A DNA stretch of 64,000 nucleotides from Candidatus Hydrogenedens sp. (GCA_049968235.1 JBMFRC010000012.1:32001-96000); one strand, 5' to 3'. Shown: positions 5,844 to 18,873, counted from the stretch's first letter. Numbers and translations: made by a program. Notes: generated by a model from the sequence alone, not told the origin.

Positions 5844-5993
5844 TTTTGTCTCCTTTTTATTTATGTTATGTAATAAAAAACAATAATTAAACTAAATAAA
5901 TTATAGCAATAAAAAAAGAAAAAAATCAATAAAATATACTTAAGAGATATTTTTTTAATAAAAGAAAAAATTTTAATGAAAAGTATTTTAAAT

Positions 5994-6022
5994 TTGACAA
6001 GGAGTAAACAGTGTGCTATAAT
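5994..6022 (+). promoter_or_regulatory. sigma70-type promoter of the rex/hnd operon
   Basis: TTGACA (5994-5999), 17-bp spacer, extended -10 TGcTATAAT (6014-6022). This sits in an AT-rich divergent intergenic region about 80 bp upstream of the rex start. Confidence 0.5.
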
Positions 6023-6040
6023 TTGTTCATAAATTCACAA
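6023..6040 (+). promoter_or_regulatory. putative Rex operator 1 (TTGTTCATAAATTCACAA)
   Basis: 18-bp imperfect palindrome resembling the Rex box TTGTGAA-N4-TTCACAA (right half perfect, outer TTGT/ACAA conserved). It abuts the -10 box. Confidence 0.5.
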
Positions 6041-6066
6041 TTATACTTACAGGTAAGTATATAAAT

Positions 6067-6084
6067 TTGTTTGTAAATTCACAA
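6067..6084 (+). promoter_or_regulatory. putative Rex operator 2 (TTGTTTGTAAATTCACAA)
   Basis: Second copy of the same 22-nt direct repeat (20/22 identical to 6022-6043), 44 bp downstream of operator 1, between the promoter and the rex start. Confidence 0.45.
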
Positions 6085-6101
6085 TTAAAAGTATAAAGTA
6101 T

Positions 6102-6797
6102 ATGGTATCTGAGAAAACAGTAGAAAGATTAAGTTTATACCGCCGAATACTTCAACAATTGAGGGTCGAGAGTAAAGAAACTATAATGTCCCATGAACTT
6201 GCGAATATGTTACACATAAAGCCAGCACAGGTACGCAGGGATATTATGCAATTAGGTTATTCAGGAATACCTAATAGTGGTTATAGAATTCGACCTCTTT
6301 TAGAGAGTATTGCAAATTTTTTAGATTCCCCGTTGCCTCAGAGTGCTGTTTTAGTAGGTGTTGGACATTTAGGACTTGCGTTATTGGCTAACTTTGCAGG
6401 ACGATGGAGGCAATTAGCTATTCGTGCCTCTTTTGATAAAGACCCTGCAAAAGTAGGACAGACTTTTCATGGTTGTCGTTGTTATGCTATGTGTGATTTG
6501 CAAAAAGTAATTGCGGAGACAAAAAGTGTAGTAGGCATCCTGGCAATACCGGGTGAAAGTGCCCAATCTGTTTGTGACCTTCTTGTTCAGTCAGGTATTA
6601 GTGGCGTATTAAATTTTTCCCCATTGCGAATTAAAGTGCCTGATAATGTCTTTATAGAACATGTTGACCTTTCCGCTACGTTTGAAAAAGTTTCGTTCTT
6701 TGCAAGAAGAATGAAACATTATGCAGAAGAAGAAAAACGGAAAGTAGAAAATGAAATTACTGAGGGTGAATACGAAACATTAACAACCAATCAATAA
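6102..6797 (+). CDS. rex: redox-sensing transcriptional repressor Rex
   Basis: N-terminal wHTH (KTVERLSLYRRIL) and Rossmann GxGxxG (LVGVGHLGLAL), typical Rex architecture, with an acidic C-terminal tail. It sits at the head of an NADH-linked hydrogenase operon. Confidence 0.85.
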   Translation: MVSEKTVERLSLYRRILQQLRVESKETIMSHELANMLHIKPAQVRRDIMQLGYSGIPNSGYRIRPLLESIANFLDSPLPQSAVLVGVGHLGLALLANFAGRWRQLAIRASFDKDPAKVGQTFHGCRCYAMCDLQKVIAETKSVVGILAIPGESAQSVCDLLVQSGISGVLNFSPLRIKVPDNVFIEHVDLSATFEKVSFFARRMKHYAEEEKRKVENEITEGEYETLTTNQ

Positions 6798-6823
6798 ATA
6801 AAAAATTTTGTAGGAGATAGAAT

Positions 6824-7348
6824 ATGAATGAAGAATCAAAGCATGCGTGTATGGAAGAAGCAAGTGAAGAAGAACTGCTTGCTCGGCTTGATGAAGTAAT
6901 TGCAGAATATAAGGACAAGCCCGGTGCTCTTATTCCTGTTCTGCAGATTGCTCAGGCTATGTTTGGTTATCTACCCGAAAGTGCATTAAAAAAGATTAGT
7001 TTGGGACTGAACAAACCGTATAGTGAAGTTGCAGGTGTGGTAACATTTTACTCATTCTTTTCAACCCAGCCTCGTGGAAAACATATGATTCGTGTCTGTT
7101 TAGGAACTGCTTGTTATGTCCGTGGTGGCAAACAGGTTCTTTCTGCAATTAAGGATAAACTCCATATTGATGTTGGAGAGACCACGAAAGACCGTATGTT
7201 CTCTTTAGAGGTGGCTCGTTGTTTTGGTGCTTGTGGGCTTGCTCCTGCCATTATGGTGGATAACGATGTGCATCAACGGGTAAAACCTGCCCGAATTCAG
7301 GCTATTTTAGACCAGTATTTAGACAAAAACACAGAAAAAAATAAATAA
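6824..7348 (+). CDS. hndA: NuoE-like [2Fe-2S] thioredoxin-fold subunit of bifurcating hydrogenase (HndA)
   Basis: CLGTAC...CFGAC Cys pattern of NuoE/HoxE/HndA; AGGAGA RBS 8 nt upstream; order hndA-hndB-hndC-hydA. Confidence 0.85.
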   Translation: MNEESKHACMEEASEEELLARLDEVIAEYKDKPGALIPVLQIAQAMFGYLPESALKKISLGLNKPYSEVAGVVTFYSFFSTQPRGKHMIRVCLGTACYVRGGKQVLSAIKDKLHIDVGETTKDRMFSLEVARCFGACGLAPAIMVDNDVHQRVKPARIQAILDQYLDKNTEKNK

Positions 7349-7370
7349 GAAATAAATAAGGAGAAAAGCC

Positions 7371-7742
7371 ATGTCAAATATTATTCATTCTCCAGAAGAC
7401 CTTAATGCTTTACGAGAAAAGGCAATTAAGGACATTGAGATTCGTAATTCACATAAAGATTTGGTGATTACTGTTCACATGGGAACATGTGGTATTGCTG
7501 CGGGTGCCAGAGAAGTATTAAAAAATATCATCTCTGAAATTTCTGCTATAGGTATAACCAATGTTACAGTCCGTCAATCTGGATGTGCAGGTCTCTGCGA
7601 CCGTGAACCCATGATTACGGTTACTCATAAATCCTCCGGTTCTGAATATCGTTATGGAAAATTAAACACGGAAAAGATACGAGAAATTGTGAAACAGCAT
7701 ATTGCAGAAGGTAAACCTGTGATGGAATATTTAATTTCCTGA
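7371..7742 (+). CDS. hndB: small [2Fe-2S] ferredoxin-like subunit (HndB-like)
   Basis: 123 aa; HMGTCGIAAGA...CAGLCDREP thioredoxin-like [2Fe-2S] fold; size and position match HndB of tetrameric Hnd hydrogenases. Confidence 0.7.
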   Translation: MSNIIHSPEDLNALREKAIKDIEIRNSHKDLVITVHMGTCGIAAGAREVLKNIISEISAIGITNVTVRQSGCAGLCDREPMITVTHKSSGSEYRYGKLNTEKIREIVKQHIAEGKPVMEYLIS

Positions 7743-7825
7743 TGAAGAAATACAGGGTAAATTCGGATTCCCATAAAGTGGTTGAGATGAACATGTATAG
7801 CAAAATAAGAAAGAATGATATAGAA

Positions 7826-9271
7826 ATGAAAATGAACATATTACATCTATTTCTTATTTTATTTTTATGTTCATCCGCAACCTTTACTGAAATATCTGAT
7901 TGGGAAACCATCTCACTTTCGGATACAGGAGAAGCATTACAAAATCCCGGCATGGGATGGGTATTACATTTTTACGATAATGTTCCTGAAAATTATGGTT
8001 CTAAATTAGCCCCTTCAGATACTGTTGATGAATTCCCTGCCCTTTCAGTTATTTATTTGCGAATAGCATGGTCGTTTTTAGAACCTGAAGAAGGAAAGTA
8101 TAACTGGTCTATATTGGATACTCCTTCTCAACGATGGATTTCTAAAGGGAAACAAATTGCTTTGCGCATTACCTGTAGTGAAACTCCTATTCCATGGGCG
8201 ACACCAAAATGGGTTTATGAAGCAGGAGCCAAAGGTAATTTCTTCATTCCTACCCAGGGGATAAAAGAAAATGGGACACATTGGGAACCCGAATTTGATG
8301 ACCCTGTTTTCTTGGATAAGTTGGATAATTTTTTAGCAGTGTTAGCAAAGAGATATGATGAAAATCCGGAAATAGCCTTCATAGATATGGGTTCATTAGG
8401 AGTGTGGGGAGAAGGTCATGTATGGCATTCCACACAAAAACATATTTCGACGGAAACCATAAAAAAACACATTGATTTGCACATAAAGCACTTTAAAAAC
8501 ACAATAATTGCTCTAAATGATGACCTTATCACAAATGGGCAAAAATTGGATGTAATTCCCGAAGAGAAAAAAGAACTCCTCAATTATGCTATCAAAAATG
8601 GGTTAACACTTCGCGATGATAGTATTCTTGTTCAGGGTGGAGATAATGTATATTTTAGTGCAAGCCTTGCGGAATACTTCTGGCGAAATAGACCTATCAT
8701 TTTAGAATCTGAACATTATGGACCATCAAAGGCTGAAAGGCATTGGGGGGACGGAAGTAAATATTTACAGGCTGTAGAAGATTACCATGCAAGTTATACT
8801 TCTATTCATTGGTGGCCAAGGGAGTTTTTACAAGAAAACAAAGATTTGATAGATAAAATCAATCTTCGTTTGGGGTATCGTATTGTCCCTACCGAAGTTA
8901 AATGGCAAAAGACAGTAAAAATATCCGAGAAAAAATGGGATATATCCTACCGTTGGGCAAATAAAGGAGTGGCACCTTGTTATCGGGATGTATATCCCAT
9001 TATTACATGGAAAGATGAGAAAGGAGGAATTGTTGCTGTTTTTACAGATGAGACATTTAATCTCAAACAATTACCAATAGGGAAGCAGGATGAATTAAAA
9101 GAAATTGAGGTAAAAAAATCTTTTTTTATTCCTTTTTTATTGAAAGAAGGAAATTATACAGTATTCATTTCAGCGGGTTCTATTACGGGCACGCCTGAAA
9201 TTCAATTACCGTTAAACAACACAGACCATGAAAAAAGATATGTTATAGGTAAAGTTAATGTTGTTTTGTGA
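7826..9271 (+). CDS. secreted glycoside-hydrolase-like TIM-barrel protein (DUF4874/DUF4832, GH42-related)
   Basis: Motifs QNPGMGW and WSFLEPEEGKYNW (the W-x-LEP-x-EG-x-Y block of GH42-like/DUF4874 proteins). The track ORF starts at 7742 (overlapping the hndB stop), but a signal peptide MKMNILHLFLILFLCSSA begins at 7826, so that is taken as the start. The gene looks AT-richer than flanking hnd genes. Confidence 0.6.
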   Translation: MKMNILHLFLILFLCSSATFTEISDWETISLSDTGEALQNPGMGWVLHFYDNVPENYGSKLAPSDTVDEFPALSVIYLRIAWSFLEPEEGKYNWSILDTPSQRWISKGKQIALRITCSETPIPWATPKWVYEAGAKGNFFIPTQGIKENGTHWEPEFDDPVFLDKLDNFLAVLAKRYDENPEIAFIDMGSLGVWGEGHVWHSTQKHISTETIKKHIDLHIKHFKNTIIALNDDLITNGQKLDVIPEEKKELLNYAIKNGLTLRDDSILVQGGDNVYFSASLAEYFWRNRPIILESEHYGPSKAERHWGDGSKYLQAVEDYHASYTSIHWWPREFLQENKDLIDKINLRLGYRIVPTEVKWQKTVKISEKKWDISYRWANKGVAPCYRDVYPIITWKDEKGGIVAVFTDETFNLKQLPIGKQDELKEIEVKKSFFIPFLLKEGNYTVFISAGSITGTPEIQLPLNNTDHEKRYVIGKVNVVL

Positions 9272-9342
9272 AAAAAAATATAAAGATATAAATAAAAACT
9301 TCAGAAATGAAGCATACACAAGTTATGGAAAGGAGAAAAAAA

Positions 9343-12300
9343 ATGAGTCCATTTCGAAGTCATGTATTAATCTGTGCAGGTGCAGGATGCGTGGCATCAG
9401 GTTCGATGGAAGTAAGTTCCGCCTTTTCGGAGGCACTTGCCAAACATGGGCTAAATGAAGAAATTCAAGTAGTCCATACAGGATGTTTAGGACCCTGTGC
9501 TATTGGTCCCGTGGTCGTGATTTATCCAGATGCTATTTTTTATCAAGGTGTTAAAACAACAGATGTTGAAGATATTGTTGTTGAGCATCTGTTAAAAGGT
9601 CGGCCTGTTAGTCGCTTGAATTTCAAATCTACTACCACATCACAAATTATTCCTGCACTGCAGGAGATTGGTTTTTTCAAGCAACAGACAAAGATAGTTT
9701 TAAGGAACTGTGGTATTATAGACCCTACAAAAATTGAGGAGTATATTGCGAGAGATGGGTATCAGGCTTTAGCAAAAGTACTGACAAAAATGACTCCACA
9801 GCAGGTAGTAGAAGAAGTGAAAAAATCTGGACTTCGGGGAAGAGGTGGTGCAGGATTCCCAACAGGTATAAAGTGGGAGTTAACTCAAAAAGCCCACGGA
9901 GATAAGAAATATGTTCTTTGTAATGCTGATGAAGGTGACCCGGGCGCATTTATGGACAGAAGTGTTTTGGAAGGTGACCCCCATAGTGTTATTGAAGCTA
10001 TGATTATAGCAGGATATGCCATTGGTTCTGACCAGGGATATATTTATGTTCGAGCAGAATATCCTTTAGCGGTAGAGAGATTAAATATAGCGATAAAGCA
10101 AGCCAGAGAATATGGTTTGTTAGGTAAGAATATTATGGGAACGAATTTTAATTTCGACCTTGAAATACGAATGGGTTCAGGTGCTTTTGTGTGTGGAGAA
10201 GAAACCGCATTGATGCGTTCTATCGAAGGGAAACGCGGAGAACCCAGACCCCGTCCACCGTTCCCTGCATATAAAGGTTTATGGGAAAAACCCAGTTTAT
10301 TAAATAATGTAGAAACCTATGCAAACATCCCTGTAATTATATTAAAAGGTGCTGATTGGTTTGCTTCCATAGGAACAGGTAAAAGTAAAGGAACAAAAGT
10401 GTTTGCCTTAGCAGGTGCTGTAAACAACACAGGATTGGTCGAAATTCCGATTGGTACACCATTAGGTGAAATTATTTATGATATTGGCGGTGGAATTCCG
10501 CGAGGCAAACAATTTAAGGCAGCGCAAATTGGAGGTCCTTCCGGCGGTTGTATTCCAAAACAACATCTGAATGTGCCGGTAGATTACGAGTCATTACAGG
10601 AATTAGGAGCGATTATGGGTTCCGGTGGATTAATTGTTATGGATGAAGACACATGTATGGTCGATATGGCTCGTTTCTTCCTTGACTTTGTTCAGGATGA
10701 GTCATGTGGAAAATGTGTCCCATGCCGGGTCGGAACGAAAAGAATGTTGGAAATTGTGACAAGGATTTGTGAGGGTCGGGGAGAAGAAGGCGATATTGAA
10801 AAACTTATTGAATTAGGACAACAGATTAAAGATGCATCGTTATGTGGATTAGGGCAGACAGCTCCAAACCCTGTTCTTTCTGCAATACGGCACTTCCGTG
10901 ATGAATTTGAAATTCATATTCGTGAACATAAATGTCCGGCGGGTGTCTGTCCATCTCTTGTTCGTGCTCCTTGTATGAGTGCTTGCCCGGCAAATGTTTA
11001 CATTCCGGGTTTTGTCTCATTAATATCTGAAAAACGATATGCGGAAGCACTTCGTGTGCATCGTGACCAGAACCCCTTTGCATCTGTATGTGCCCGTGTG
11101 TGTTTCCATACTTGTGAGGACAAATGTAGAAGAGCTACTCTGGATGAAGCGGTATCCATACGCGGATTGAAGCGATTTATGGTAGAGCAAGAAGTTACAA
11201 TACAACTACCTGAAATTCGTGAAAATGAACAAAATCTTCGCAAAAAGGTGGCTATTATAGGAGCAGGTCCTGCAGGTCTAACCTGTGCTTATTTCCTTGC
11301 ACGATTAGGCTATCAACCCCGTGTTTTTGAATCTGCACCCAGGCCCGGCGGTATGTTAGTTCAAACAATTCCCGCTTATCGGTTACCCCGAGAAGAATTG
11401 GCTCGAGAAATTCGTATGATAGAAAGAATGGGCGTTGTCATAGAAACTGAAAAAGCCTTAGGTCGTGATTTTACATTACAAAGCCTTCGTGATGATGGAT
11501 ATGAGGCTATTTTTCTCGGAATAGGTGCTCCATCAGGTCAAAAATTGAGAATTCCAGGCGAAGATGCGGATGGCGTTGTCGAAGCCATAGACTTCCTTCG
11601 TGAATACAATCTCCGTGGTTCTGTTCCTGTAGGGAAAAATGTTGTTATTATAGGAGGTGGTAATGCAGCTATTGATGCGGCAAGAACTGCCATTCGTTTA
11701 GGAGCAAAAAAAGCAACGATTCTTTACCGCAGAACAAGAGAAGAGATGCCTGCGTATAAAGAAGAGATCGAAGAAGCAGTTAATGAAGGTGTTATTTTAA
11801 AAATGTTAGTAACTCCACTGGAGATTTTGACAGAAAACGGAAAAGTTGTTGGTGTAAAATGTCAACACATGTGGTTAGGAGAATATGACCGTTCCGGTAG
11901 AAGAAGACCTGAAGCCAAAAAGGGTGAAGAACCCTTTGTTGAAGAAGCAGACCAGGTTATTGCAGCAATAGGGCAAACTGTTGATTTAAAACGTTACCTG
12001 GATGGATTAAATGTTAAGTTAACACCTTCTGGTTTCTTGTGGGTAGACCAATTATATGGTCAGACCTCTATTGAATGGTTATTTGCAGGTGGTGATATTA
12101 GTTCAGGTCCTTCTTCCGTAGCAGAAGCAATCGGTGCTGGTGAAAGAGCTGCAGTTGGAATTGATAAGTATCTTACTGGAGAAGAACATGCTTTCTGGCG
12201 CGAACCCTATATGGTAGATACAGAATTTGACCCAGATTCCGACCCGGTAGATTTCCCAAGAGCAAAAATGAAACTTTTACCTGTTGAAAAGAGGGTACAC

Positions 12301-12414
12301 AACTTTAATGAAGTTGAAATCCCGTTTACGGAAACATTAGCGGTAAGAGAGGCACGCCGTTGCTTACGTTGTGATTATCGTGAAACAAAAATAAGTTTAA
12401 ATACACAACAATAA
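9343..12414 (+). CDS. hndC: NuoF-like flavoprotein subunit (HndC) fused to a GltD/NfnB-like NAD(P)H:FAD oxidoreductase domain
   Basis: N-terminal Trx-like [2Fe-2S] (CAGAGC...CLGPC). NuoF core GRGGAGFPTGIKW (FMN) and ESCGKCVPCRVG ([4Fe-4S]). From about 10930: GltD-type Cys clusters (CPAGVCP...CMSACP, CARVCFHTCEDKC) and FAD/NAD(P) fingerprints VAIIGAGPAGL, VVIIGGGNAAID. The track ORF starts at 9307, but AGGAGA sits 8 nt before the ATG at 9343. Confidence 0.8.
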   Translation: MSPFRSHVLICAGAGCVASGSMEVSSAFSEALAKHGLNEEIQVVHTGCLGPCAIGPVVVIYPDAIFYQGVKTTDVEDIVVEHLLKGRPVSRLNFKSTTTSQIIPALQEIGFFKQQTKIVLRNCGIIDPTKIEEYIARDGYQALAKVLTKMTPQQVVEEVKKSGLRGRGGAGFPTGIKWELTQKAHGDKKYVLCNADEGDPGAFMDRSVLEGDPHSVIEAMIIAGYAIGSDQGYIYVRAEYPLAVERLNIAIKQAREYGLLGKNIMGTNFNFDLEIRMGSGAFVCGEETALMRSIEGKRGEPRPRPPFPAYKGLWEKPSLLNNVETYANIPVIILKGADWFASIGTGKSKGTKVFALAGAVNNTGLVEIPIGTPLGEIIYDIGGGIPRGKQFKAAQIGGPSGGCIPKQHLNVPVDYESLQELGAIMGSGGLIVMDEDTCMVDMARFFLDFVQDESCGKCVPCRVGTKRMLEIVTRICEGRGEEGDIEKLIELGQQIKDASLCGLGQTAPNPVLSAIRHFRDEFEIHIREHKCPAGVCPSLVRAPCMSACPANVYIPGFVSLISEKRYAEALRVHRDQNPFASVCARVCFHTCEDKCRRATLDEAVSIRGLKRFMVEQEVTIQLPEIRENEQNLRKKVAIIGAGPAGLTCAYFLARLGYQPRVFESAPRPGGMLVQTIPAYRLPREELAREIRMIERMGVVIETEKALGRDFTLQSLRDDGYEAIFLGIGAPSGQKLRIPGEDADGVVEAIDFLREYNLRGSVPVGKNVVIIGGGNAAIDAARTAIRLGAKKATILYRRTREEMPAYKEEIEEAVNEGVILKMLVTPLEILTENGKVVGVKCQHMWLGEYDRSGRRRPEAKKGEEPFVEEADQVIAAIGQTVDLKRYLDGLNVKLTPSGFLWVDQLYGQTSIEWLFAGGDISSGPSSVAEAIGAGERAAVGIDKYLTGEEHAFWREPYMVDTEFDPDSDPVDFPRAKMKLLPVEKRVHNFNEVEIPFTETLAVREARRCLRCDYRETKISLNTQQ

Positions 12415-12431
12415 TAAAAGGAGAATAAGCC

Positions 12432-14204
12432 ATGCCAAAATTAACTATAGATGGAATTCCCGTAGAAGTTCCGGAAGGAACAACAATACTTCAAGCGGCA
12501 AAGCAAATAGGATTAAAAATACCGACACTTTGTTATCTTGAAGAAGTTCAAGCCATCGGTGCCTGTCGTGTTTGCGTTGTTGAAGTTGAAGGAGCACGAA
12601 CTTTGGTCGCTTCTTGTGTTGCTCCTGTTGCGGAAGGAATGAAAGTCCATACAAATTCAAAAAGAGCCCGTGAGGCACGAAAAACAGTTGTAGAATTGTT
12701 ACTATCCGACCATGATGGCGATTGCCAGATTTGTGTTCGAAATGAAGATTGTGAACTTCAGGAATTGGCACGAACACTTGGGATAAAGGAAATTCGCTAT
12801 CAAGGTGAGAAGAGAAAACGGATTGTGGATGAAAGCACTCCCGCTGTTGTTCGTGATACATCGAAATGTGTCTTATGTAGAAGATGTATAACGGTTTGCA
12901 ATGAGGTTCAGGGTGTTGGCGGACTGTTCCCACAAAATCGTGGCTTTGAAACGGTAATAGGTCCCGCATTTTGTAGTGATTTGGATGATGTCGTATGTGT
13001 TCAGTGTGGTCAATGTAGTGCGGTTTGTCCTGTGGGTGCTATTGTAGAAAGAGACCAGATTGCGGATGTCTTTTCTGCATTAGATGACCCGACAAAAACA
13101 GTCGTTGTCCAGACAGCCCCTGCAATTCGTGCCGCATTGGGAGAATGTTTTGGTTTACCACCCGGAACTTTAGTAACAGGGAAGATGGTTACCGCACTTC
13201 GTAGACTGGGTTTCCATGCCGTTTTTGATACTAACTTTGCCGCTGACCTTTGTATTATGGAAGAAGGTACAGAACTGCTAACTCGATTGAAGAAAAAACT
13301 GGTAGATGGGGAGAATATTGCTCTTCCTATGTTTACCAGTTGTTCTCCGGGGTGGATTAAGTTTTTAGAACATTTCTACCCGGATATGATTCCAAATGTA
13401 TCTACATGCAAATCCCCACAGCAAATGTTTGGTGCTATAGCAAAGACCTATTATTCCAAGAAAATTGGTAAGAAACCCGAAGATATTGTTGTTGTTTCTA
13501 TTATGCCCTGTACAGCGAAGAAATATGAACATCAGCGTCCCGAGATGAACAGTTCCGGTGTTCGTGATGTGGACTATGTGCTTACAACGCGTGAATTGGG
13601 TCGGATGATAAAACAGGCAGGCATTGATTTTGTAAATCTACCCGATGACAAGCAAGACTCACCATTAGGACTATCCTCTGGTGCTGCGGATATTTTTGCG
13701 AATACCGGGGGTGTTATGGAAGCGGCAATTCGAACTGTTTATGAAATAGTAACAGGACGCGAATTACCATTCGATGGACTTCATGTTGCTCCTATCGAAG
13801 GATTAGAAGGAATCAAGGAAGCCTCCTTGAAGATAGAAAAATGTGTGCCTGAATGGTCTTTCTTAGAAGGGGCTACCGTAAATGTTGCTGTGGCTCATGG
13901 ATTGGGTAATGCCAGAGCATTAATAGAGCGAGTTCGCTCAGGTGAAAAGGCGTATCACTTTATAGAAATTATGACCTGTCCCGGTGGATGTATTGGTGGA
14001 GGAGGACAACCTCGCTTTACAGATAATTCAGTTCGTCTTGCTCGTATTCAGGCCATATACAAAGAGGATGAAGGGAAACAACTTCGTAAGTCCCATGTAA
14101 ATCCTGACATACAAAAATTGTATAAGGAATTTTTAGGACATCCGAATAGTGAAGTTTCACATCATCTATTACATACGCATTACAATCCGAGAACAAAAGT
14201 ATAA
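12432..14204 (+). CDS. hydA: [FeFe]-hydrogenase catalytic subunit, M3-type (HndD/HydA)
   Basis: N-terminal plant-type [2Fe-2S]; His-ligated [4Fe-4S] (HDGDCQICVRNEDC); two ferredoxin-like CxxCxxCxxxCP motifs; H-cluster motifs L2 MPCTAKKYE and L3 EIMTCPGGCIGGGGQP; L1 is present as FTSCSPGW, which is non-canonical. Confidence 0.9.
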   Translation: MPKLTIDGIPVEVPEGTTILQAAKQIGLKIPTLCYLEEVQAIGACRVCVVEVEGARTLVASCVAPVAEGMKVHTNSKRAREARKTVVELLLSDHDGDCQICVRNEDCELQELARTLGIKEIRYQGEKRKRIVDESTPAVVRDTSKCVLCRRCITVCNEVQGVGGLFPQNRGFETVIGPAFCSDLDDVVCVQCGQCSAVCPVGAIVERDQIADVFSALDDPTKTVVVQTAPAIRAALGECFGLPPGTLVTGKMVTALRRLGFHAVFDTNFAADLCIMEEGTELLTRLKKKLVDGENIALPMFTSCSPGWIKFLEHFYPDMIPNVSTCKSPQQMFGAIAKTYYSKKIGKKPEDIVVVSIMPCTAKKYEHQRPEMNSSGVRDVDYVLTTRELGRMIKQAGIDFVNLPDDKQDSPLGLSSGAADIFANTGGVMEAAIRTVYEIVTGRELPFDGLHVAPIEGLEGIKEASLKIEKCVPEWSFLEGATVNVAVAHGLGNARALIERVRSGEKAYHFIEIMTCPGGCIGGGGQPRFTDNSVRLARIQAIYKEDEGKQLRKSHVNPDIQKLYKEFLGHPNSEVSHHLLHTHYNPRTKV

Positions 14205-14223
14205 GATAAGATTTAATAATAAA

Positions 14224-14247
14224 GGGGAGTGTGAGTGAGCACTCCCC
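14224..14247 (+). terminator. weak hairpin after hydA (possible attenuating terminator)
   Basis: GGGGAGTG/CACTCCCC 8-bp stem with an 8-nt loop, but no downstream U-tract. Confidence 0.3.
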
Positions 14248-14329
14248 ATACAATCCTATGAAGTTGTATAATAGGAATATAGGTAGGAGTAAGTAGGTTT
14301 ATGAGTGTCTAATATTTAGGAAAGAAAAA

Positions 14330-14725
14330 ATGGAAAATAAAATTATAATGGTCGTTGATGATGATATTGATGTTCAGGATTTCTGTAAAATTGTATTAGG
14401 AAGAGAGGATTATCAGGTTATAACATTTTCCAACTCAGAGAGTGCACTCGAATATTTATCGTCGAACACTCCCTCTGTAATTATTACCGATTTAATGATG
14501 GGTGGAATTGATGAGGGTGTCCAATTTGTTAATAAGATTAGAGGATTCGATAATGAGAAGGCAAAAATTCCAATTATAATGATTACAGGCATAAATTCAA
14601 AATTAGGATATGACATCACTCCCCGTTCCGATGAAGAAAAAAAACAAATGAAAATCGATGAATTTATATCAAAACCTTTAAATCCAAAACAGTTAATAAC
14701 AGCACTAAAAAAAGTAATCAAATAG
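14330..14725 (+). CDS. single-domain response regulator (CheY-like receiver)
   Basis: VVDDD acidic pocket, phospho-acceptor Asp in ITDLMMGG, conserved Lys in ISKPL; 131 aa, no output domain. Confidence 0.75.
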   Translation: MENKIIMVVDDDIDVQDFCKIVLGREDYQVITFSNSESALEYLSSNTPSVIITDLMMGGIDEGVQFVNKIRGFDNEKAKIPIIMITGINSKLGYDITPRSDEEKKQMKIDEFISKPLNPKQLITALKKVIK

Positions 14726-14777
14726 AAATTTGTTTCGTATAGATACTGTTTAATTTATAAATATAAGGAAATGAGTT

Positions 14778-16175
14778 ATGAGTTCAAATGTAGAAACTGT
14801 TCCTATTAATGAGGAATTTATTTTTGATACTTTAAAAAATAGTGTCAAGAAAGATGCGGTTTACATCAAAGAAATTCTTGCAAAAGCCCTTGAATTAAAG
14901 GGATTAGATGCGACAGAAGTAGCCACGCTTGCAACAATAAGTGACCCTGACCTGTTAAAAGAACTTTTCGATACAGCCCGAAAAGTCAAAGAGGAGATTT
15001 ACGGTAAACGATTAGTTCTTTTTGCCCCACTTTATGTATCAAATCTTTGCAAGAATGAATGCTTATATTGTGCTTTCCGTAAAAGTAACAAGATGGTTCG
15101 TAGAAAAGCATTGACACAAGAAGAAGTCCGTAGAGAGGTTGAAACATTGGTTGACCAGGGGCATAAACGCATTCTATTAGTGGCAGGCGAGTCCTATCCT
15201 TCCGAAGGATTTGATTATGTTATTCATTGTATCGAAACAATATATAGTGTAAAGCGGGATAGGGGAGAGATACGACGCGTAAATGTGAATATAGCACCCT
15301 TATCGTTAGAGGAATTTAAAAGGCTGAAATCAGCAAAAATTGGGACATATCAGTTATTTCAAGAAACATACCACAGAGAAACATACCAAAAAGTCCATGT
15401 AGGTGGACTTAAAAAGGATTTTGACTGGAGAATTACCGCTATGGACCGTGCTATGAAAGCTGGCATTGATGATGTGGGTGTTGGCGTTCTTTTTGGCTTA
15501 TTTGATTGGAGATTTGAAATACTTGCTTTAATGCAACATATTAAACATTTAGAAGATACCTTCGGTGTAGGATGTCACACGATAAGTGTACCTCGCCTTG
15601 AACCTGCTATAGGTTCAGACCTGGCTTCACATCCCCCTTATCCGGTATCAGACCTTGATTTCAGAAAAATTGTAGCTATACTAAGACTTGCTGTGCCCTA
15701 TACAGGAATAATAATGTCCACTCGTGAAACTCCCAATATACGAAGAGAAACCTTTGCACTGGGTGTATCACAAATATCAGCAGGCAGTAGAACGAATCCA
15801 GGTGGGTATACAGGCAGTGAAGAAGAGGATATGAGCCAATTCTCATTAGGTGACCATCGCAGTCTGGATGAGGTTATTCGTGATGTTACAAAATTAGGTT
15901 ATATCCCATCCTTCTGCACGGCTTGTTATCGTTTAGGCAGAACAGGTGCTGACTTTATGGACCTTGCCAAGCCGGGTCTTATCAAGAACCATTGTGAAGT
16001 TAATGCTTTAAGCACTTTTGCTGAATATCTGGAAGATTATGCATCCTCCGAAACAAAACAAATAGGTTGGGCAAAGATTGAGGAAATTTTAAATACAATG
16101 CCTGAAGTTCGGAAAAAACGTACCGAAGGGATGTTGGCTCGTGTAAAAGCCGGTGAACGGGATGTATATGTGTAA
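14778..16175 (+). CDS. hydG: [FeFe]-hydrogenase H-cluster radical SAM maturase HydG
   Basis: CKNECLYCAF radical-SAM motif (ThiH-like) plus C-terminal CTACYR...NHC (Cx2Cx22C) auxiliary cluster motif; 465 aa. Confidence 0.9.
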   Translation: MSSNVETVPINEEFIFDTLKNSVKKDAVYIKEILAKALELKGLDATEVATLATISDPDLLKELFDTARKVKEEIYGKRLVLFAPLYVSNLCKNECLYCAFRKSNKMVRRKALTQEEVRREVETLVDQGHKRILLVAGESYPSEGFDYVIHCIETIYSVKRDRGEIRRVNVNIAPLSLEEFKRLKSAKIGTYQLFQETYHRETYQKVHVGGLKKDFDWRITAMDRAMKAGIDDVGVGVLFGLFDWRFEILALMQHIKHLEDTFGVGCHTISVPRLEPAIGSDLASHPPYPVSDLDFRKIVAILRLAVPYTGIIMSTRETPNIRRETFALGVSQISAGSRTNPGGYTGSEEEDMSQFSLGDHRSLDEVIRDVTKLGYIPSFCTACYRLGRTGADFMDLAKPGLIKNHCEVNALSTFAEYLEDYASSETKQIGWAKIEEILNTMPEVRKKRTEGMLARVKAGERDVYV

Positions 16176-16180
16176 ATCTT

Positions 16181-17602
16181 ATGTCAGACTACCGAATTGA
16201 AACCGACTTATTGGGTGAAAAAAAGATACCTGCGGATGTCTATTGGGGTATACATACTGCTCGTGCAGTAGAAAATTTTCCTGTTTCCCGACTCTCGGTT
16301 CATTCAGAATTAATCCAATCTTATGGAATTGTAAAACTTGCATGTGCAAAAATAAATTATTCGTTAGGATACTTATTACATCCTCCTGATAAATCATCTG
16401 CCATATTTAACGCTTGCGAAGAAGTAGCAATTGGTAAATGGAATGACCATATTATCGTGGATGCTCTACAGGGTGGAGCAGGAACCAGCACAAATATGAA
16501 TATTAATGAGGTTATTGCCAACCGTGCCCTAGAAATATTGGGCTTACCACGGGCAAAATATGACATTATTTCCCCATTAGATGATATAAATCTTCACCAA
16601 TCGACTAACGATACTTATCCTACCGCCCTGAAACTTGCTACGATAAGGATGTTAAGAAAATTAGAATCAGAAATTATTCTTCTTTTAGAGACATTTCAAA
16701 CACTTGAAAAACAATTTTCGGACATAGTAAAAATTGGAAGGACAGAACTTCAAGATGCAACGCCTATTACATTAGGTAGGGAGATGGGTGCTTATGCAGA
16801 TGCCCTAGTAAGAGACCGTTGGCGTATCTATAAGTGTGAAGAAAGATTGCGAGTAGTTAATTTAGGAGGCACCGCAATAGGAACAGGTTTAGGAGCACCA
16901 AGGGATTATATTTTCCGTGTTGTAGATAATCTGCGAGAGTTATCAAATATCGGTTTTTCGCGAGCAGAAAATTTAGTAGATGCAACTCAAAATCTCGATG
17001 TATTTGGGGAAGTATCAGGTATCATTCGTTCCTATGCCATAACGCTTAATAAAATAGCCAATGATTTGAGACTAATGTCATCCGGACCCGAAGCAGGTCT
17101 CCGTGAAATTCAACTTCCACAATTACAAGCGGGTTCATCTATTATGCCAGGGAAAGTGAACCCTGTTTTGCCTGAAGCGGTATGCCAGGTTGCAATGCTA
17201 ACATTTGGATTCGACCAGATTATCACATATGGCTGTTCTTCCGGAAACCTTGAACTAAATCCTTTTGTCCCTTTGATTGCTCATTGTTTGTTAAATATGA
17301 TTGAAATGTTAACAAATGTAACAAAATTATTTACGGAAAAATGTATTAAAGGAATTTCGCCGAACCGAGAGGTTTGTGTTTCCTATGTGAATAATTCTAC
17401 AGCAACTCTAACCGCACTTATACAGAAGATAGGATATGAAAAAGCATGTATGATTGCTAAAAAAACAAGTAATTTGAAAAAGAGTATTCGAGAAATTGTA
17501 TTGGAAGAAGGAGTTTTGACTCCTGAAGAATTTGATACTCTTTTAAGTCCTGAGTCCGTTTGTAAATTAGGATTTGTTGACACCAGTAATGAGATAGATT
17601 AG
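16181..17602 (+). CDS. aspartate ammonia-lyase / class-II fumarase family lyase
   Basis: Fumarate-lyase signature GSSIMPGKVNPV; N-terminus similar to AspA (DLLGEKKIPADVYWGIHTARA); 473 aa. Confidence 0.8.
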   Translation: MSDYRIETDLLGEKKIPADVYWGIHTARAVENFPVSRLSVHSELIQSYGIVKLACAKINYSLGYLLHPPDKSSAIFNACEEVAIGKWNDHIIVDALQGGAGTSTNMNINEVIANRALEILGLPRAKYDIISPLDDINLHQSTNDTYPTALKLATIRMLRKLESEIILLLETFQTLEKQFSDIVKIGRTELQDATPITLGREMGAYADALVRDRWRIYKCEERLRVVNLGGTAIGTGLGAPRDYIFRVVDNLRELSNIGFSRAENLVDATQNLDVFGEVSGIIRSYAITLNKIANDLRLMSSGPEAGLREIQLPQLQAGSSIMPGKVNPVLPEAVCQVAMLTFGFDQIITYGCSSGNLELNPFVPLIAHCLLNMIEMLTNVTKLFTEKCIKGISPNREVCVSYVNNSTATLTALIQKIGYEKACMIAKKTSNLKKSIREIVLEEGVLTPEEFDTLLSPESVCKLGFVDTSNEID

Positions 17603-17611
17603 GAAGGAAAT

Positions 17612-18865
17612 ATGCTTAGAGCATCACCAAAATCATTTCGACTGCATATTGGTTTTTTTGGTAGAAGGAATGTTGGAAAATCCAGTTTACTTAATGCAAT
17701 TACACGACAAAATGTCTCAATTGTTTCTGAATCCGCAGGAACCACAACAGACCCCGTGGAAAAACCTATGGAACTACTACCTTTAGGTCCTGTTCTATTC
17801 ATTGATACTGCGGGCATTGATGATATAGGTGCTTTAGGAGAATTACGGATACAAAAAACAAGACAAATTTTTGACCGAACCGATGTTGCGGTTGTTGTTA
17901 CAGAAGCCGGTATATGGGGAGAATTTGAGGAAGGCTTGTGTAATGAGTTTAAGTCAAGAAATGTTCCTATCGTAGTTGTGTTTAACAAAGTGGACCTGCA
18001 TGAACCTGATGAAACATTGTGTAATAGGTTGAAAAATGAGAAAATTCTATATGTAAAGACTATTGCATCAAAGCAGGATGGTATTAGTGAACTCAAAAAT
18101 GCACTTATTTCTTCAGCCCCCGATGATTTTATAAATAGTCCAACGATTTTAGGAGATTTGGTAGCTCCTGGTGAATTGGCTGTGCTTGTCGTGCCTATAG
18201 ATAAAGAAGCACCTAAAGGAAGACTTATTATGCCTCAGGTTCAATCCATCCGTGATTTGTTAGATAACGATGCTATGTGTGTTGTCGTAAAAGAAAGAGA
18301 ACTCCGGCGAATTTTAGAACAATTAAAAATTCTTCCAAAGATTGTTGTTACTGATTCCCAGGCATTCTTAAAAGTCGTCGCAGATACTCCTTCCAATGTA
18401 TGGGTTACAAGTTTTTCAATATTATTTTCAAGATTCCGCGGAGATTTAATTACACAGGTGGAAGGAACACTTGCTATCGAATCATTGAAACCCGGAGATA
18501 AAATACTTATTGCAGAATCATGCTCGCATCACCCTATTGCCGATGATATAGGAAGGGTTAAAATACCAAGATGGTTAATGCAATATATCGGTGGAAAATT
18601 AGAATTTGATACTGTTCAGGGAAATGATTTTTTTTCAGATTTAACAAAATATAAAATGGTTATACACTGTGGAGCATGCACACTCAATCGCCGTGCTATG
18701 TTAAATCGTATTATGCATTGCAAAAAACAAGGGATACCAATAAGTAATTACGGGTTAACTATAGCCTATTCTTTAGGTATCCTCGAAAGGGCATTAGAAC
18801 CATTCCCATCCGCATTGGAAATATATAAACAGAAAACAACAAAAAAGTTGCAAAACATTAAATAA
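17612..18865 (+). CDS. hydF: [FeFe]-hydrogenase maturation GTPase HydF
   Basis: G1 GRRNVGKSS; C-terminal CSHHP...HCGAC Fe-S binding motif characteristic of HydF; 417 aa. Confidence 0.85.
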   Translation: MLRASPKSFRLHIGFFGRRNVGKSSLLNAITRQNVSIVSESAGTTTDPVEKPMELLPLGPVLFIDTAGIDDIGALGELRIQKTRQIFDRTDVAVVVTEAGIWGEFEEGLCNEFKSRNVPIVVVFNKVDLHEPDETLCNRLKNEKILYVKTIASKQDGISELKNALISSAPDDFINSPTILGDLVAPGELAVLVVPIDKEAPKGRLIMPQVQSIRDLLDNDAMCVVVKERELRRILEQLKILPKIVVTDSQAFLKVVADTPSNVWVTSFSILFSRFRGDLITQVEGTLAIESLKPGDKILIAESCSHHPIADDIGRVKIPRWLMQYIGGKLEFDTVQGNDFFSDLTKYKMVIHCGACTLNRRAMLNRIMHCKKQGIPISNYGLTIAYSLGILERALEPFPSALEIYKQKTTKKLQNIK

Positions 18866-18873
18866 AATAAAAC

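What the first reader, a model, noticed from the sequence alone, without database searches (positions are those of the whole stretch)
9343..12414. HndC (NuoF-like) subunit fused in-frame to a GltD/NfnB-like NAD(P)H-FAD domain, giving a hybrid of bifurcating and GltD-linked [FeFe] hydrogenase types
One 1024-1035-aa ORF carries Trx-like [2Fe-2S] + NuoF FMN/[4Fe-4S] (to about 10920) and then a complete glutamate-synthase-small-subunit-like module. That module has two N-terminal Cys clusters (CPAGVCP...CMSACP; CARVCFHTCEDKC) and two dinucleotide-binding GxGxxG/A fingerprints. Canonical HndC ends with two ferredoxin-like clusters instead. A second flavin/NAD(P)H site on the diaphorase arm could add NADP(H) specificity or a second bifurcation/confurcation site, as in NfnAB or sulfide dehydrogenase.
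Basis: partly seen in the sequence, partly recalled or inferred. Interest (0 to 1): 0.55.

Follow-up and report, generated by a model that had tools for sequence, protein, structure and literature searches.

The report
Hydrogenase NADH subunit fused to NADPH module
The fusion is real: the NADH-binding subunit of an iron-only hydrogenase has swapped its ferredoxin-docking end for an NADPH/FAD module, but this layout was already described in 2024 for the same bacterial phylum, occurs in at least 20 phylum-level groups, and has never been tested biochemically.

Summary
One uninterrupted ORF (probable start ATG 9343, stop 12412-12414, 1023 aa) encodes a BfuB/HndC/HydB-type subunit. It carries a Trx-like [2Fe-2S] domain, an FMN/NADH domain, the [4Fe-4S] cluster B1 and the Zn hinge. 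In frame, it continues into a complete GltD/NfnL-like module with two [4Fe-4S] clusters, FAD and NADPH sites.

It is not an assembly artefact. More than 120 full-length homologs at 71-98% identity exist, and 50 full-length fusions from at least 20 phylum-level groups keep almost all cofactor ligands.

- The junction lies at about nt 10960-10965, not 10920.
- "CPAGVC" belongs to the BfuB Zn hinge, not to a GltD cluster.
- The GltD module is circularly permuted. Its C-terminal CLRC (C1007, C1010) completes the distal cluster, as in the NADPH module of Nfn-Bfu/Stn transhydrogenases. Those modules are its closest solved relatives.
- The cluster next to FAD has the Lys ligand of the non-bifurcating StnC, not the Glu of bifurcating NfnB.

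The architecture is published: "sub-type I BfuB" of Hydrogenedentota (Zheng & Huang 2024). I found no biochemistry. The most likely function is a ferredoxin-independent hydrogenase linking H2 to both NAD(H) and NADP(H). Already known; moderate-to-low interest.

The parts
5994..6022 (+). Promoter-like site upstream of rex (TTGACA-17-TATAAT with TG), candidate operon promoter
   Evidence: the only 12/12 consensus match in 5800-20200. A consensus match only; the total number of sites is not above the shuffle expectation.
6102..6797 (+). Rex-type redox-sensing repressor gene
   Evidence: Put_DNA-bind_N (2.9e-15) + CoA_binding (1.4e-13). The same gene precedes the operon in L033 and L081-L083.
6824..7348 (+). 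bfuC/hndA/hydC (NuoE-like, [2Fe-2S] cluster C1)
   Evidence: 2Fe-2S_thioredx, 174 bits. HoxE/NuoE models. It lies immediately upstream of the fused BfuB in nearly all related loci.
7371..7742 (+). bfuD/hndB (small Trx-like [2Fe-2S] protein)
   Evidence: 2Fe-2S_thioredx, 24.4 bits (just below the 24.8 cut-off); fdxn_Clost. Present in a subset of related loci, consistent with BfuD being dispensable.
7742..9271 (+). Inserted gene for a GH42/DUF4832-like protein with a hydrophobic N-terminus; not a hydrogenase part
   Evidence: DUF4832 (7.6e-10), Glyco_hydro_42 (5.2e-08). The same insertion occurs only in Hydrogenedens-lineage loci L033 and L081-L083.
9343..12414 (+). Fused bfuB::gltD-like gene (1023 aa + stop): the finding
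9355..9579 (+). N-terminal Trx-like [2Fe-2S] domain (B5 site; C11, C16, C48, C52)
   Evidence: 2Fe-2S_thioredx; the four Cys are kept in 47-51 of 51 fusions.
9817..10548 (+). FMN/NAD(H) domain plus SLBB domain
   Evidence: Complex1_51K 157.6 bits, SLBB 31 bits; nuoF_fam 515 bits; 838 bits to A. mobile HydB 7t2r_B.
10663..10917 (+). Four-helix bundle with [4Fe-4S] B1 (C455, C458, C461, C501)
   Evidence: NADH_4Fe-4S 120.8 bits; all four Cys in 51/51.
10915..10962 (+). B2/Zn hinge (H525, C531, C536; also C438 and C476 upstream) and the end of BfuB homology
   Evidence: 'HIRxxKCPAGVC' aligns with solved HydB/StnB/NfnB. Zn ligands in Tsi NfnB are C437, H524, C529, C534, plus C476 in the NiFe enzyme. 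H525, C531, C536 in 51/51; C476 is C in 29 and T in 16. C438 is invariant among close homologs.
10963..11193 (+). DPD_II/Fer4_20 region of the GltD-like module: C544, C548, C587, C591, C595, K610 (and non-ligand C583)
   Evidence: Fer4_20 77.4 bits; alignment to Csac NfnA 101-170; the FAD-proximal cluster A7 is bound by C108, C147, C151, K170; all are kept in 51/51 except C583 (50/51).
11242..12141 (+). FAD and NADP(H) Rossmann domains (GAGPAG at 640; GGGNAA at 771; YRR 795-797; EMPA 801)
   Evidence: Pyr_redox_2 102 bits. 'lyrrtreempa' is identical to Csac NfnA; motif residues in 50-51/51; this is the best-modelled part (pLDDT about 80-94).
12142..12411 (+). C-terminal tail, homologous to the N-terminus of NfnB/GltD; C1007 and C1010 (nt 12361-12372) complete the distal [4Fe-4S]
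   Evidence: the tail aligns to Csac NfnA to 567, to StnC to 569, and to residues 8-43 of T. maritima NfnB (4ylf_B). C1007 in 49/51 and C1010 in 48/51.
12432..14204 (+). bfuA/hndD/hydA, [FeFe]-hydrogenase catalytic subunit (M3-type; P1 TSCSPGW, P2 MPCTAK, P3 EIMTCPGGCIGGGGQ)
   Evidence: Fe_hyd_lg_C 330 bits, Fe_hyd_SSU, Fer2_4, NADH-G_4Fe-4S_3. FeFe_hydrog_A6 907 bits (cut-off 765); motifs.
14224..14247 (.). G+C-rich hairpin just after hydA (possible end of the structural operon)
   Evidence: 8-bp stem with 6 GC pairs. The scan assigns the T-run to the minus strand, so its role as a plus-strand terminator is uncertain.
14330..14725 (+). Stand-alone response-regulator receiver gene
   Evidence: Response_reg 68.6 bits. 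A weak homolog follows hydA in several loci.
14778..19926 (+). H-cluster maturase cluster: hydG (14778-16175), fumarase/aspartase-class lyase (16181-17602), hydF (17612-18865), hydE (18874-19926)
   Evidence: Radical_SAM+BATS; Lyase_1 269 bits; HydF_dimer/HydF_tetramer; Radical_SAM. Homologs cluster in L003 and L029.

Best explanation
**What it is (shown).** The ORF encodes the diaphorase subunit (BfuB/HndC/HydB) of a multimeric group-A3-type [FeFe]-hydrogenase. The operon is rex-bfuC-bfuD-[inserted GH-like gene]-bfuB-bfuA, with the hydGFE maturases downstream.

The canonical mobile C-terminal domain holds two [4Fe-4S] clusters (B3/B4). It docks ferredoxin and ends the low-potential branch. 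Here it has been replaced, exactly at the Zn hinge, by a circularly permuted GltD/NfnL-like module with two [4Fe-4S] clusters, FAD and an NADPH-type Rossmann site. This is the 'sub-type I BfuB' of Zheng & Huang 2024.

**How it works (inferred).**
- H2 is oxidised or formed at the H-cluster of BfuA.
- Electrons pass through the BfuA clusters to the B1-FMN-C1 flavobicluster.
- NAD(H) reacts at the FMN.
- The hinge-attached module takes the place of ferredoxin as the third redox partner: distal cluster (C544, C595, C1007, C1010), then proximal cluster (C548, C587, C591, K610), then FAD, then NADP(H).
- The FAD acts as a simple two-electron/one-electron converter, as in StnC/NfnA of Nfn-Bfu, not as a second bifurcating flavin.

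The net reaction would be ferredoxin-independent: 2 H2 + NAD+ + NADP+ <-> NADH + NADPH + 2 H+. In a fermenter this would let NADPH oxidation help pull NADH-dependent H2 evolution.
For: **Architecture and reality of the fusion**
- establish the ORF and its domains.
- More than 120 full-length homologs at 71-98% identity.
- The gene is called as one 1023-aa product in separate JGI and ENA assemblies (8 contigs read, 3 shown).
- 50 full-length fusions from species-representative genomes of at least 20 phylum-level groups.

**N half is a bifurcation-type BfuB**
- 838 bits to A. mobile HydB and 835 bits to A. woodii HydB.
- B5, B1 and Zn-hinge ligands are conserved. This includes the His that PMC12018979 says marks Bfu B subunits.

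**C half is closest to the Nfn-Bfu NADPH modules**
- 407 bits to Csac NfnA and 366 bits to S. ovata StnC, against 291 bits to T. maritima NfnB and 200 bits to GltD.
- The fold search agrees.
- It shares their permutation and Lys ligand.
- In StnC that FAD was shown by structure and mutagenesis to be non-bifurcating and to feed a cluster chain.

**Attachment and partners**
- The module is attached at the hinge that moves B3/B4 in canonical enzymes.
- In the close clade, HydA always follows the fused gene directly.
- In more distant clades the same fused subunit pairs with FdhA or with a NuoG-N-terminal protein plus a GltB-like protein. It therefore behaves as a general NAD(H)/NADP(H) module.
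- Prior description.
Against: - There is no biochemical or structural work on any member. None turned up in the searchable literature. No PDB chain spans both halves.
- I could not show that the distal cluster comes within electron-transfer distance of C1, B1 or FMN. The AF2 model is only moderate (pLDDT 72, pTM 0.53) and gives no coordinates.
- Sending the low-potential electron of a bifurcation to NADP+ would waste much of its driving force. Tight coupling is therefore not thermodynamically required.
- The module is not identical to StnC. It lacks StnC's C114 and keeps the NfnB-like 'IPGF' motif and C583.
- NAD versus NADP preference at the FMN site cannot be read from sequence.
Confidence: 0.5

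Rival explanations
1. Uncoupled dual-cofactor hydrogenase. The enzymes lacking B3/B4 (S. wolfei-type) are non-bifurcating NADH hydrogenases. Here the added FAD module would simply be a second, independent entry or exit for NADP(H) into the same cluster chain. The enzyme would then use NADH or NADPH alternatively, with no energetic coupling.
For: - Loss of B3/B4 is associated with non-bifurcating activity (citing the S. wolfei work).
- The GltD-like FAD is of the non-bifurcating Stn type.
- NADP(H) and NAD(H) standard potentials are equal, so coupling is not obligatory (general knowledge).
Against: - The N half keeps the features of bifurcating B subunits that the cited literature links to bifurcation: the B5 cluster, the hinge His/Cys and BfuC. 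It is closest to bifurcating HydB, not to complex I NuoF.
- The module sits precisely at the mobile hinge of the low-potential branch rather than near the BfuA chain.
Confidence: 0.25
2. Double bifurcation, or a hydrogenase-Nfn hybrid. The FAD would be a second bifurcating flavin, as in NfnB/NfnL. Ferredoxin would still bind, now at the distal cluster of the GltD-like module. The enzyme would link H2, NAD(H), NADP(H) and ferredoxin.
For: - In NfnAB the homologous two clusters form the low-potential path to ferredoxin, and the homologous FAD bifurcates.
- The module retains some NfnB-like features absent from StnC: 'IPGF' and C583.
- The idea is proposed.
Against: - The proximal-cluster ligand is Lys in 51/51 fusions, as in non-bifurcating StnC. 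Bifurcating NfnB has Glu.
- No NfnA/NfnS-like [2Fe-2S]+FAD partner is encoded in the operon.
- The closest relatives are the Nfn-Bfu modules.
Confidence: 0.12
3. Artificial fusion: an assembly or sequencing error joins two adjacent genes (hndC and a gltD-like gene).
For: None found.
Against: - There is no stop in frame.
- The junction is a seamless continuation of conserved sequence.
- The same single ORF recurs in hundreds of independent assemblies across many phyla, at lengths of about 1005-1060 aa.
Confidence: 0.01

Closest known systems
Sub-type I BfuABC(D) group A3 [FeFe]-hydrogenase of Hydrogenedentota (Zheng & Huang 2024, mSystems, PMC11406978)
   Same: - Same architecture: the B3/B4 domain of BfuB is replaced by DPD_II plus an FAD/NAD(P) domain.
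- Same gene order, C-(D)-B-A.
- Same phylum, judging by the names of the closest homologs.
- Ser in H-cluster motif P1 is also noted there.
   Different: Nothing essential differs; this is an instance of it. The sections of that paper I read do not mention:
- the GH42/DUF4832-like gene inserted between bfuD and bfuB;
- the circular permutation of the module;
- the Lys ligand;
- the pairing of the fused subunit with FdhA or GltB-like partners.
Canonical electron-bifurcating HydABC/HndABCD (T. maritima, A. woodii, T. kivui, S. fructosivorans) and NiFe-HydABCSL (A. mobile)
   Same: - The N-terminal 540 residues align end to end with HydB (838 and 835 bits).
- B5, FMN, B1 and Zn-hinge ligands are present.
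- BfuC and M3-type HydA partners are present.
   Different: The C-terminal ferredoxin-like B3/B4 domain, the ferredoxin site, is absent. A module of about 480 aa binding NADPH and FAD replaces it.
Nfn-Bfu / Stn transhydrogenase NADPH module (S. ovata StnC 8oh5_C, C. saccharolyticus NfnA 9bov_A, T. sibiricus NfnA 9n5u_A)
   Same: - Closest solved relatives of residues 541-1011 (407, 366 and 342 bits).
[quoted passage not shown]
- Same Lys ligand on the FAD-proximal cluster.
- Same NADPH motifs.
   Different: - There the module is inserted in the NuoG-like catalytic subunit. It replaces the hydrogenase as the medium-potential input, and ferredoxin is still used.
- Here it hangs on the B subunit in place of the ferredoxin site, and the H-cluster is retained.
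- StnC's C114 is Ile here; C583 is extra.
NfnAB/NfnSL (T. maritima NfnB 4ylf_B, P. furiosus NfnL 5jca_L), GltD and DPD domain I/II
   Same: Same fold and cofactor set: two [4Fe-4S] clusters, FAD and NADPH (291, 290, 200 and 173 bits; TM-score normalised to the target about 0.8).
   Different: - Non-permuted order: their CxxC segment is N-terminal.
- Glu (NfnB) or Gln (DPD; from my own recollection of the structure, not checked here) sits where this protein has Lys.
- Different partners (NfnA/NfnS, GltB), none of which is encoded here.
HydDB group A2 'glutamate synthase-linked' [FeFe]-hydrogenases
   Same: A GltD-like protein is genetically linked to an [FeFe]-hydrogenase.
   Different: A2 is defined by a GltD-type neighbour without NuoF. 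Here NuoF is present, so the rule gives A3.

Membership tests
Bfu family B subunit (Schut et al. 2022; BfuBC core) | NuoF-like FMN/NAD(H) domain with [4Fe-4S] B1 | tested here: met
   Complex1_51K 157.6 bits and NADH_4Fe-4S 120.8 bits. nuoF_fam 515 bits. C455/C458/C461/C501 in 51/51.
Bfu family B subunit (Schut et al. 2022; BfuBC core) | B2 site (now known to be Zn) with the Bfu-specific His plus Cys, at the hinge | tested here: met
   H525, C531, C536 in 51/51. C476 is C or T, as in the known enzymes. C438 is invariant in close homologs.
Bfu family B subunit (Schut et al. 2022; BfuBC core) | N-terminal Trx-like [2Fe-2S] (B5) | tested here: met
   2Fe-2S_thioredx hit. C11, C16, C48, C52 kept in 47-51 of 51.
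Bfu family B subunit (Schut et al. 2022; BfuBC core) | C-terminal ferredoxin-like domain with two [4Fe-4S] clusters (B3/B4) that binds ferredoxin | tested here: not met
   HydB homology ends at residue 540. No Fer4 dicluster hit. Fer4_20 + Pyr_redox_2 take its place.
Bfu family B subunit (Schut et al. 2022; BfuBC core) | Adjacent BfuC (NuoE-like, C1) and a BfuA catalytic subunit | tested here: met
   bfuC at 6824-7348 (174 bits). hydA at 12432-14204 (FeFe_hydrog_A6, 907 bits).
Bfu family B subunit (Schut et al. 2022; BfuBC core) | Electron-bifurcating activity with NAD and ferredoxin | not testable with these tools
   Requires enzyme assays.
Sub-type I BfuB (Zheng & Huang 2024) | B3/B4 domain replaced by DPD_II plus a C-terminal FAD/NAD(P)-binding domain | tested here: met
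Sub-type I BfuB (Zheng & Huang 2024) | Gene cluster C-(D)-B-A with M3a-type BfuA | tested here: met
   One extra inserted GH-like gene lies between D and B.
HydDB [FeFe] group A3 | Neighbouring protein contains a NuoF domain | tested here: met
   Rule quoted. NuoF hits.
HydDB [FeFe] group A2 | Neighbouring protein has GltA/GltD-type domains but not NuoF | tested here: not met
   NuoF is present in the same protein.
Nfn-Bfu/Stn-type (non-bifurcating) NADPH-FAD module | Lys ligand on the FAD-proximal [4Fe-4S] (StnC/NfnA K170) | tested here: met
   K610 aligns with K170 and is Lys in 51/51. Its significance is given.
Nfn-Bfu/Stn-type (non-bifurcating) NADPH-FAD module | Permuted order: the 'RCLxC' segment follows the FAD domain | tested here: met
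   The tail aligns to NfnA up to 567 and to StnC up to 569, and to the N-terminus (8-43) of T. maritima NfnB.
Nfn-Bfu/Stn-type (non-bifurcating) NADPH-FAD module | Module inserted in the NuoG-like A-type subunit | tested here: not met
   Here it is C-terminal on the B subunit. HydA has no such insertion.
Bifurcating NfnB/NfnL (NfnAB) | Glu ligand on the proximal cluster, and an NfnA/NfnS partner ([2Fe-2S] + FAD) | tested here: not met
   Lys instead of Glu. No NfnA-like gene in the operon at 6102-19926. The rest of the window was not screened.
Glutamate synthase small subunit GltD | Partner GltB large subunit | tested here: not met
   No GltB in the operon. Only 200 bits to GltD, against 407 to NfnA. 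Some distant fused homologs do sit next to a Glu_synthase-domain protein.

The most novel reading that the evidence does not exclude
The ferredoxin site of a Bfu-type bifurcating hydrogenase has been exchanged for an NADP(H) site. The enzyme would then obligatorily couple the two pyridine-nucleotide pools to H2: NADH + NADPH + 2 H+ <-> 2 H2 + NAD+ + NADP+, through the B1-FMN-C1 flavobicluster. That is a ferredoxin-independent 'NADH/NADPH-confurcating' hydrogenase, a reaction not demonstrated for any enzyme in the literature I searched. The same fused subunit would confer this coupling on formate dehydrogenases and GltB-like enzymes in other phyla.
Probability: 0.35. Interest if true: 0.6.

Novelty: already known. 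Interest (0 to 1): 0.3.

Why it matters
This fused subunit is widespread. Full-length fusions come from at least 20 phylum-level groups, including the cultured syntroph Pelotomaculum terephthalicicum. Databases simply label it 'NuoF'.

If NADP(H) really replaces ferredoxin as the third substrate, metabolic reconstructions that score these operons as ferredoxin-dependent bifurcating hydrogenases (group A3) are wrong. They would misstate which redox pools are linked to H2, and the H2 partial pressures at which these fermenters and syntrophs can work.

It also offers a natural experiment for the Bfu mechanism. The bifurcating core is kept, but its low-potential outlet is wired to a two-electron acceptor.

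For this scan, the value is mainly a confirmed and corrected annotation, not a discovery.

Tried and rejected
- **Artefactual fusion.** Rejected.
Rejected. CPAGVC is the BfuB Zn hinge.
- **Start at 9307.** Rejected in favour of 9343, on the SD sequence and homolog lengths.
- **Rex operator search** (TTGTGAAN6TTCACAA, up to 3 mismatches). Six hits against 8.6 expected, and none in the promoter region, so it gives no evidence.
- **Promoter/terminator scan.** Counts are not above the shuffle expectation. Only the single perfect consensus at 5994-6022 is worth noting.
- **AF2 model of the full protein.** Only moderate (pLDDT 72, pTM 0.53) because the permitted alignment was shallow (at least 71% identity). 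It confirms the two halves' folds through Foldseek. No coordinates are returned, so inter-cofactor distances cannot be judged.
- **Literature searches for an earlier or biochemical description.** Searched: NuoF+GltD+fusion; Bfu+HydB+GltD; BfuB+NADPH+FAD; GltD-like+hydrogenase; Pelotomaculum. Only Zheng & Huang 2024 turned up. Losey 2020 and Schut 2022 do not mention the fusion.
- **ORF extraction.** Two of 52 candidate fusions (L023, L042) showed an internal stop in my crude ORF extension. They were dropped without follow-up.

Full report
**1. Observation**

The window has one uninterrupted + strand ORF, 9307..12414 (1035 aa from the first ATG).
- Translation from ATG 9343 gives 1023 aa with a single terminal stop.
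- ATG 9343 has AGGAG about 8 nt upstream. ATG 9307 has nothing comparable.
- The closest database proteins are 1021-1023 aa and the top hits cover 100% of the 9343-start query.

Pfam hits, converted to residue numbers from 9343:

| Domain | Residues | Score |
|---|---|---|
| 2Fe-2S_thioredx | 5-79 | – |
| Complex1_51K | 159-330 | E 2.7e-46 |
| SLBB | 354-402 | – |
| NADH_4Fe-4S | 441-525 | E 2.2e-35 |
| Fer4_20 (DPD domain II) | 535-617 | E 9.3e-22 |
| Pyr_redox_2 | 634-933 | E 3.9e-29 |

NCBIfam gives nuoF_fam (515 bits) on the N half. PRK12771 and PRK12814 ('NADPH-dependent glutamate synthase small subunit'-type) match the C half. The described fusion is therefore really there and far beyond chance.

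**2. Not an artefact**

- A search of 5.8 billion proteins returned more than 120 full-length proteins at 71-98% identity. They are named 'NuoF' by their sources. They come from Candidatus Hydrogenedens/Hydrogenedentota, Phycisphaerae, other Planctomycetota and FCB-group MAGs.
- A 91%-identical protein from 'Candidatus Hydrogenedens sp.' is called as a single 1023-aa gene in separate JGI and ENA assemblies, 8 contigs read and 3 shown.
- From the 80 loci kept, I extracted 50 complete in-frame fusions of 973-1060 aa.
- Their record titles span at least 20 phylum-level groups:
  - Nitrospiraceae, Verrucomicrobiota, TA06, Acidobacteria, Planctomycetota, Actinomycetota
  - Spirochaetes, Lentisphaerae, Pseudomonadota, Bacteroidota, Fibrobacterota, Kiritimatiellia
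  - Thermodesulfobacteriota, Armatimonadota, Atribacteria, Chloroflexota, Bacillota, Gemmatimonadaceae
  - the cultured Pelotomaculum terephthalicicum JT, among others

**3. Anatomy and corrections**

*N half and junction.*
- Against the PDB, residues 2-541 align end to end with the B subunits of solved bifurcating enzymes. These include A. mobile NiFe-HydB 7t2r_B (838 bits), A. woodii HydB 7q4v_B (835 bits), T. kivui, T. maritima, S. ovata StnB and Csac NfnB.
- The alignment runs through '...HIREHKCPAGVCPSLV'.
- That motif is the B2 site, now known to be a Zn hinge. It is ligated in T. sibiricus NfnB by C437, H524, C529 and C534, with C476 as an extra ligand in the NiFe enzyme. It carries the mobile B3/B4 domain.
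- The real junction is between residues 540 and 541 (nt 10960-10965).

*C half.*
- Residues 541-1011 are most similar to the GltD/NfnL-like NADPH module embedded in the large NuoG-like subunit of Nfn-Bfu/Stn transhydrogenases, not to GltD itself:

| Reference | Region | Bits |
|---|---|---|
| Csac NfnA 9bov_A | 101-567 | 407 |
| S. ovata StnC 8oh5_C | 101-569 | 366 |
| T. sibiricus NfnA | – | 342 |
| T. maritima NfnB | – | 291 |
| P. furiosus NfnL | – | 290 |
| GltD | – | 200 |
| DPD | – | 173 |

- Foldseek on the AF2 model gives the same ranking. No solved chain covers both halves.

*Circular permutation.*
- The C-terminal tail (about residues 970-1011, '...NFNEVEIPFTETLAVREARRCLRCD') aligns to the N-terminus of T. 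maritima NfnB (residues 8-43, '...EAQRCLQCP').
- The module is therefore circularly permuted relative to NfnB/GltD, exactly as in StnC/NfnA.

*Ligand map.*
- I used the published ligands of Csac NfnA cluster A7: C108, C147, C151, K170.
- The FAD-proximal cluster here is bound by C548, C587, C591 and K610.
- The distal cluster is bound by C544, C595, C1007 and C1010.
- Across 51 fusions the conservation is:

| Residues | Conservation |
|---|---|
| C544, C548, C587, C591, C595, K610 | 51/51 |
| C1007 / C1010 | 49 / 48 of 51 |
| FAD GxGxxG, NADPH GxGxxA, Y795, R796 | 51/51 |
| R797 | 50/51 |
| B1 cysteines; hinge H525, C531, C536 | 51/51 |
| B5 cysteines | 47-51 of 51 |

**4. Context**

The operon reads as follows:

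| Gene | Coordinates |
|---|---|
| rex | 6102-6797 |
| bfuC/hndA | 6824-7348 |
| bfuD/hndB | 7371-7742 |
| GH42/DUF4832-like gene | 7742-9271 |
| fused bfuB | 9343-12414 |
| hydA (NCBIfam FeFe_hydrog_A6, 907 bits) | 12432-14204 |
| response regulator | 14330-14725 |
| hydG, aspartase/fumarase-class lyase, hydF, hydE | 14778-19926 |

- In the close clade (GltD part 58-74% identical), HydA always follows the fused gene.
- In the distant clade (41-49%), the fused subunit is followed by one of three partners:
  - HydA;
  - a formate dehydrogenase catalytic subunit, split into two ORFs in L032 and L063, probably at a selenocysteine TGA codon (not verified);
  - a NuoG-N-terminal protein plus a Glu_synthase-domain protein.
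- The fused subunit thus behaves as a general pyridine-nucleotide module serving different catalytic partners.

**5. What is already known**

Zheng & Huang (mSystems 2024, PMC11406978) catalogued 195 BfuABC clusters in Hydrogenedentota and defined 'sub-type I'.
- They speculated about a second, FAD-based bifurcation centre.
- They found homologs in Spirochaetota, Pseudomonadota, Planctomycetota, Verrucomicrobiota, Kiritimatiellota and Thermodesulfobacteriota.

This is the object of the finding, in the same phylum. I found no biochemical or structural study of it. Schut 2022 and Losey 2020 do not mention it. Under HydDB rules the hydrogenase is A3, not A2.

**6. Mechanism**

*Shown:* the cofactor-binding inventory, the attachment point and the homologies.

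*Inferred:*
- In canonical Bfu enzymes the B1-FMN-C1 flavobicluster bifurcates. The low-potential electron leaves via C1 to the hinge-mounted B3/B4 domain and then to ferredoxin.
- Here the hinge carries two [4Fe-4S] clusters, FAD and an NADPH site instead.
- The best-supported reading is therefore that NADP(H) takes ferredoxin's place as third substrate.
- The FAD is likely a plain 2e/1e converter. Its proximal cluster has the Lys ligand of StnC. In StnC, structure and mutagenesis showed a non-bifurcating FAD feeding a cluster chain. Bifurcating NfnB has Glu at that position.
- My own estimate from standard and commonly quoted physiological potentials is below; it is an inference.
  - NADH at about -280 mV supports H2 only up to a few Pa.
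  - Averaging with NADPH at about -370 to -380 mV raises the limit to roughly 100 Pa.
  - This would give a fermenter a rationale for coupling.
- I cannot distinguish tight coupling from independent use of the two nucleotides (rival 1). A four-substrate enzyme that still uses ferredoxin (rival 2) is less likely but not excluded.

**7. Verdict**

- The feature is already described in the literature at the bioinformatic level and is very common.

The modest additions here are:
- the exact hinge junction;
- the circular permutation, with C1007/C1010 completing the distal cluster;
- the Stn-type Lys ligand, which argues against a second bifurcating flavin;
- the pairing of the fused subunit with non-hydrogenase partners.

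The open question is biochemical.

Noticed in passing
window 7742-9271 (+); L033 5478-6941; L081-L083 4469-5932: A gene for a GH42/DUF4832-like protein with a hydrophobic, signal-peptide-like N-terminus sits inside the cytoplasmic hydrogenase operon, between bfuD and bfuB. Its longest ORF overlaps the bfuD stop by 1 nt. The insertion is conserved in Hydrogenedens-lineage relatives (64% identity in L033; the same Pfam domains in L081-L083). It is absent from the equivalent operons of all other phyla examined.
   Followed up: partly
window 12432-14204 (HydA residue 302): H-cluster motif P1 reads TSCSPGW: Ser where the proton-relay Cys of the classical TSCCP motif sits. The same Ser occurs in 29 of 33 HydA genes next to fused BfuB and in 19 of 19 other HydA genes in the fetched loci. 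Zheng & Huang note that Ser is common in four of their five sub-types. The consequences for proton transfer were not examined.
   Followed up: partly
window 16181-17602 (+); also L003, L029: A fumarase/aspartase-class lyase gene (Lyase_1, 269 bits) is embedded between hydG and hydF in the H-cluster maturase cluster. The same association occurs in distant phyla (TA06, Armatimonadota loci).
   Followed up: no
proteins P0212, P0221, P0229, P0235, P0251, P0253, P0267: A separate family of about 650-aa proteins consists of only two parts. The first is the C-terminal four-helix/[4Fe-4S] domain of NuoF (CGKCxPC), without the FMN domain. The second is the same permuted GltD-like module, ending in C(L/M)RCYR. 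It probably corresponds to NCBIfam PRK12771 and may be an evolutionary relative or source of the fusion.
   Followed up: partly
L032 13107-15794, L063 13023-15770, L050 12903-15698, L054 12942-16007; L035 13109-15481, L055 13772-15376: In more distant lineages the same fused BfuB::GltD-like subunit is followed not by HydA but by one of two alternatives. One is a formate dehydrogenase catalytic subunit, in two loci split into two ORFs, probably at a selenocysteine TGA. The other is a NuoG-N-terminal protein plus a Glu_synthase (GltB-like) domain protein.
   Followed up: partly
window 5994-6022 (+) and 14224-14247: A perfect extended sigma-70 consensus (TTGACA-17-TATAAT with TG) lies about 80 nt upstream of rex. 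A G+C-rich 8-bp hairpin lies 20 nt after the hydA stop. Together they may delimit the structural operon. No Rex operator consensus was found above chance anywhere in the window.
   Followed up: partly
L002, L013, L022, L027, L030, L031, L041, L044: Many genomes carry a second, canonical bfuC-bfuB-bfuA set (N half 43-65% identical, no GltD part) immediately next to the fused-type operon. In L030, L031 and L044 the fused B subunit has no HydA of its own and directly precedes the canonical set.
   Followed up: no
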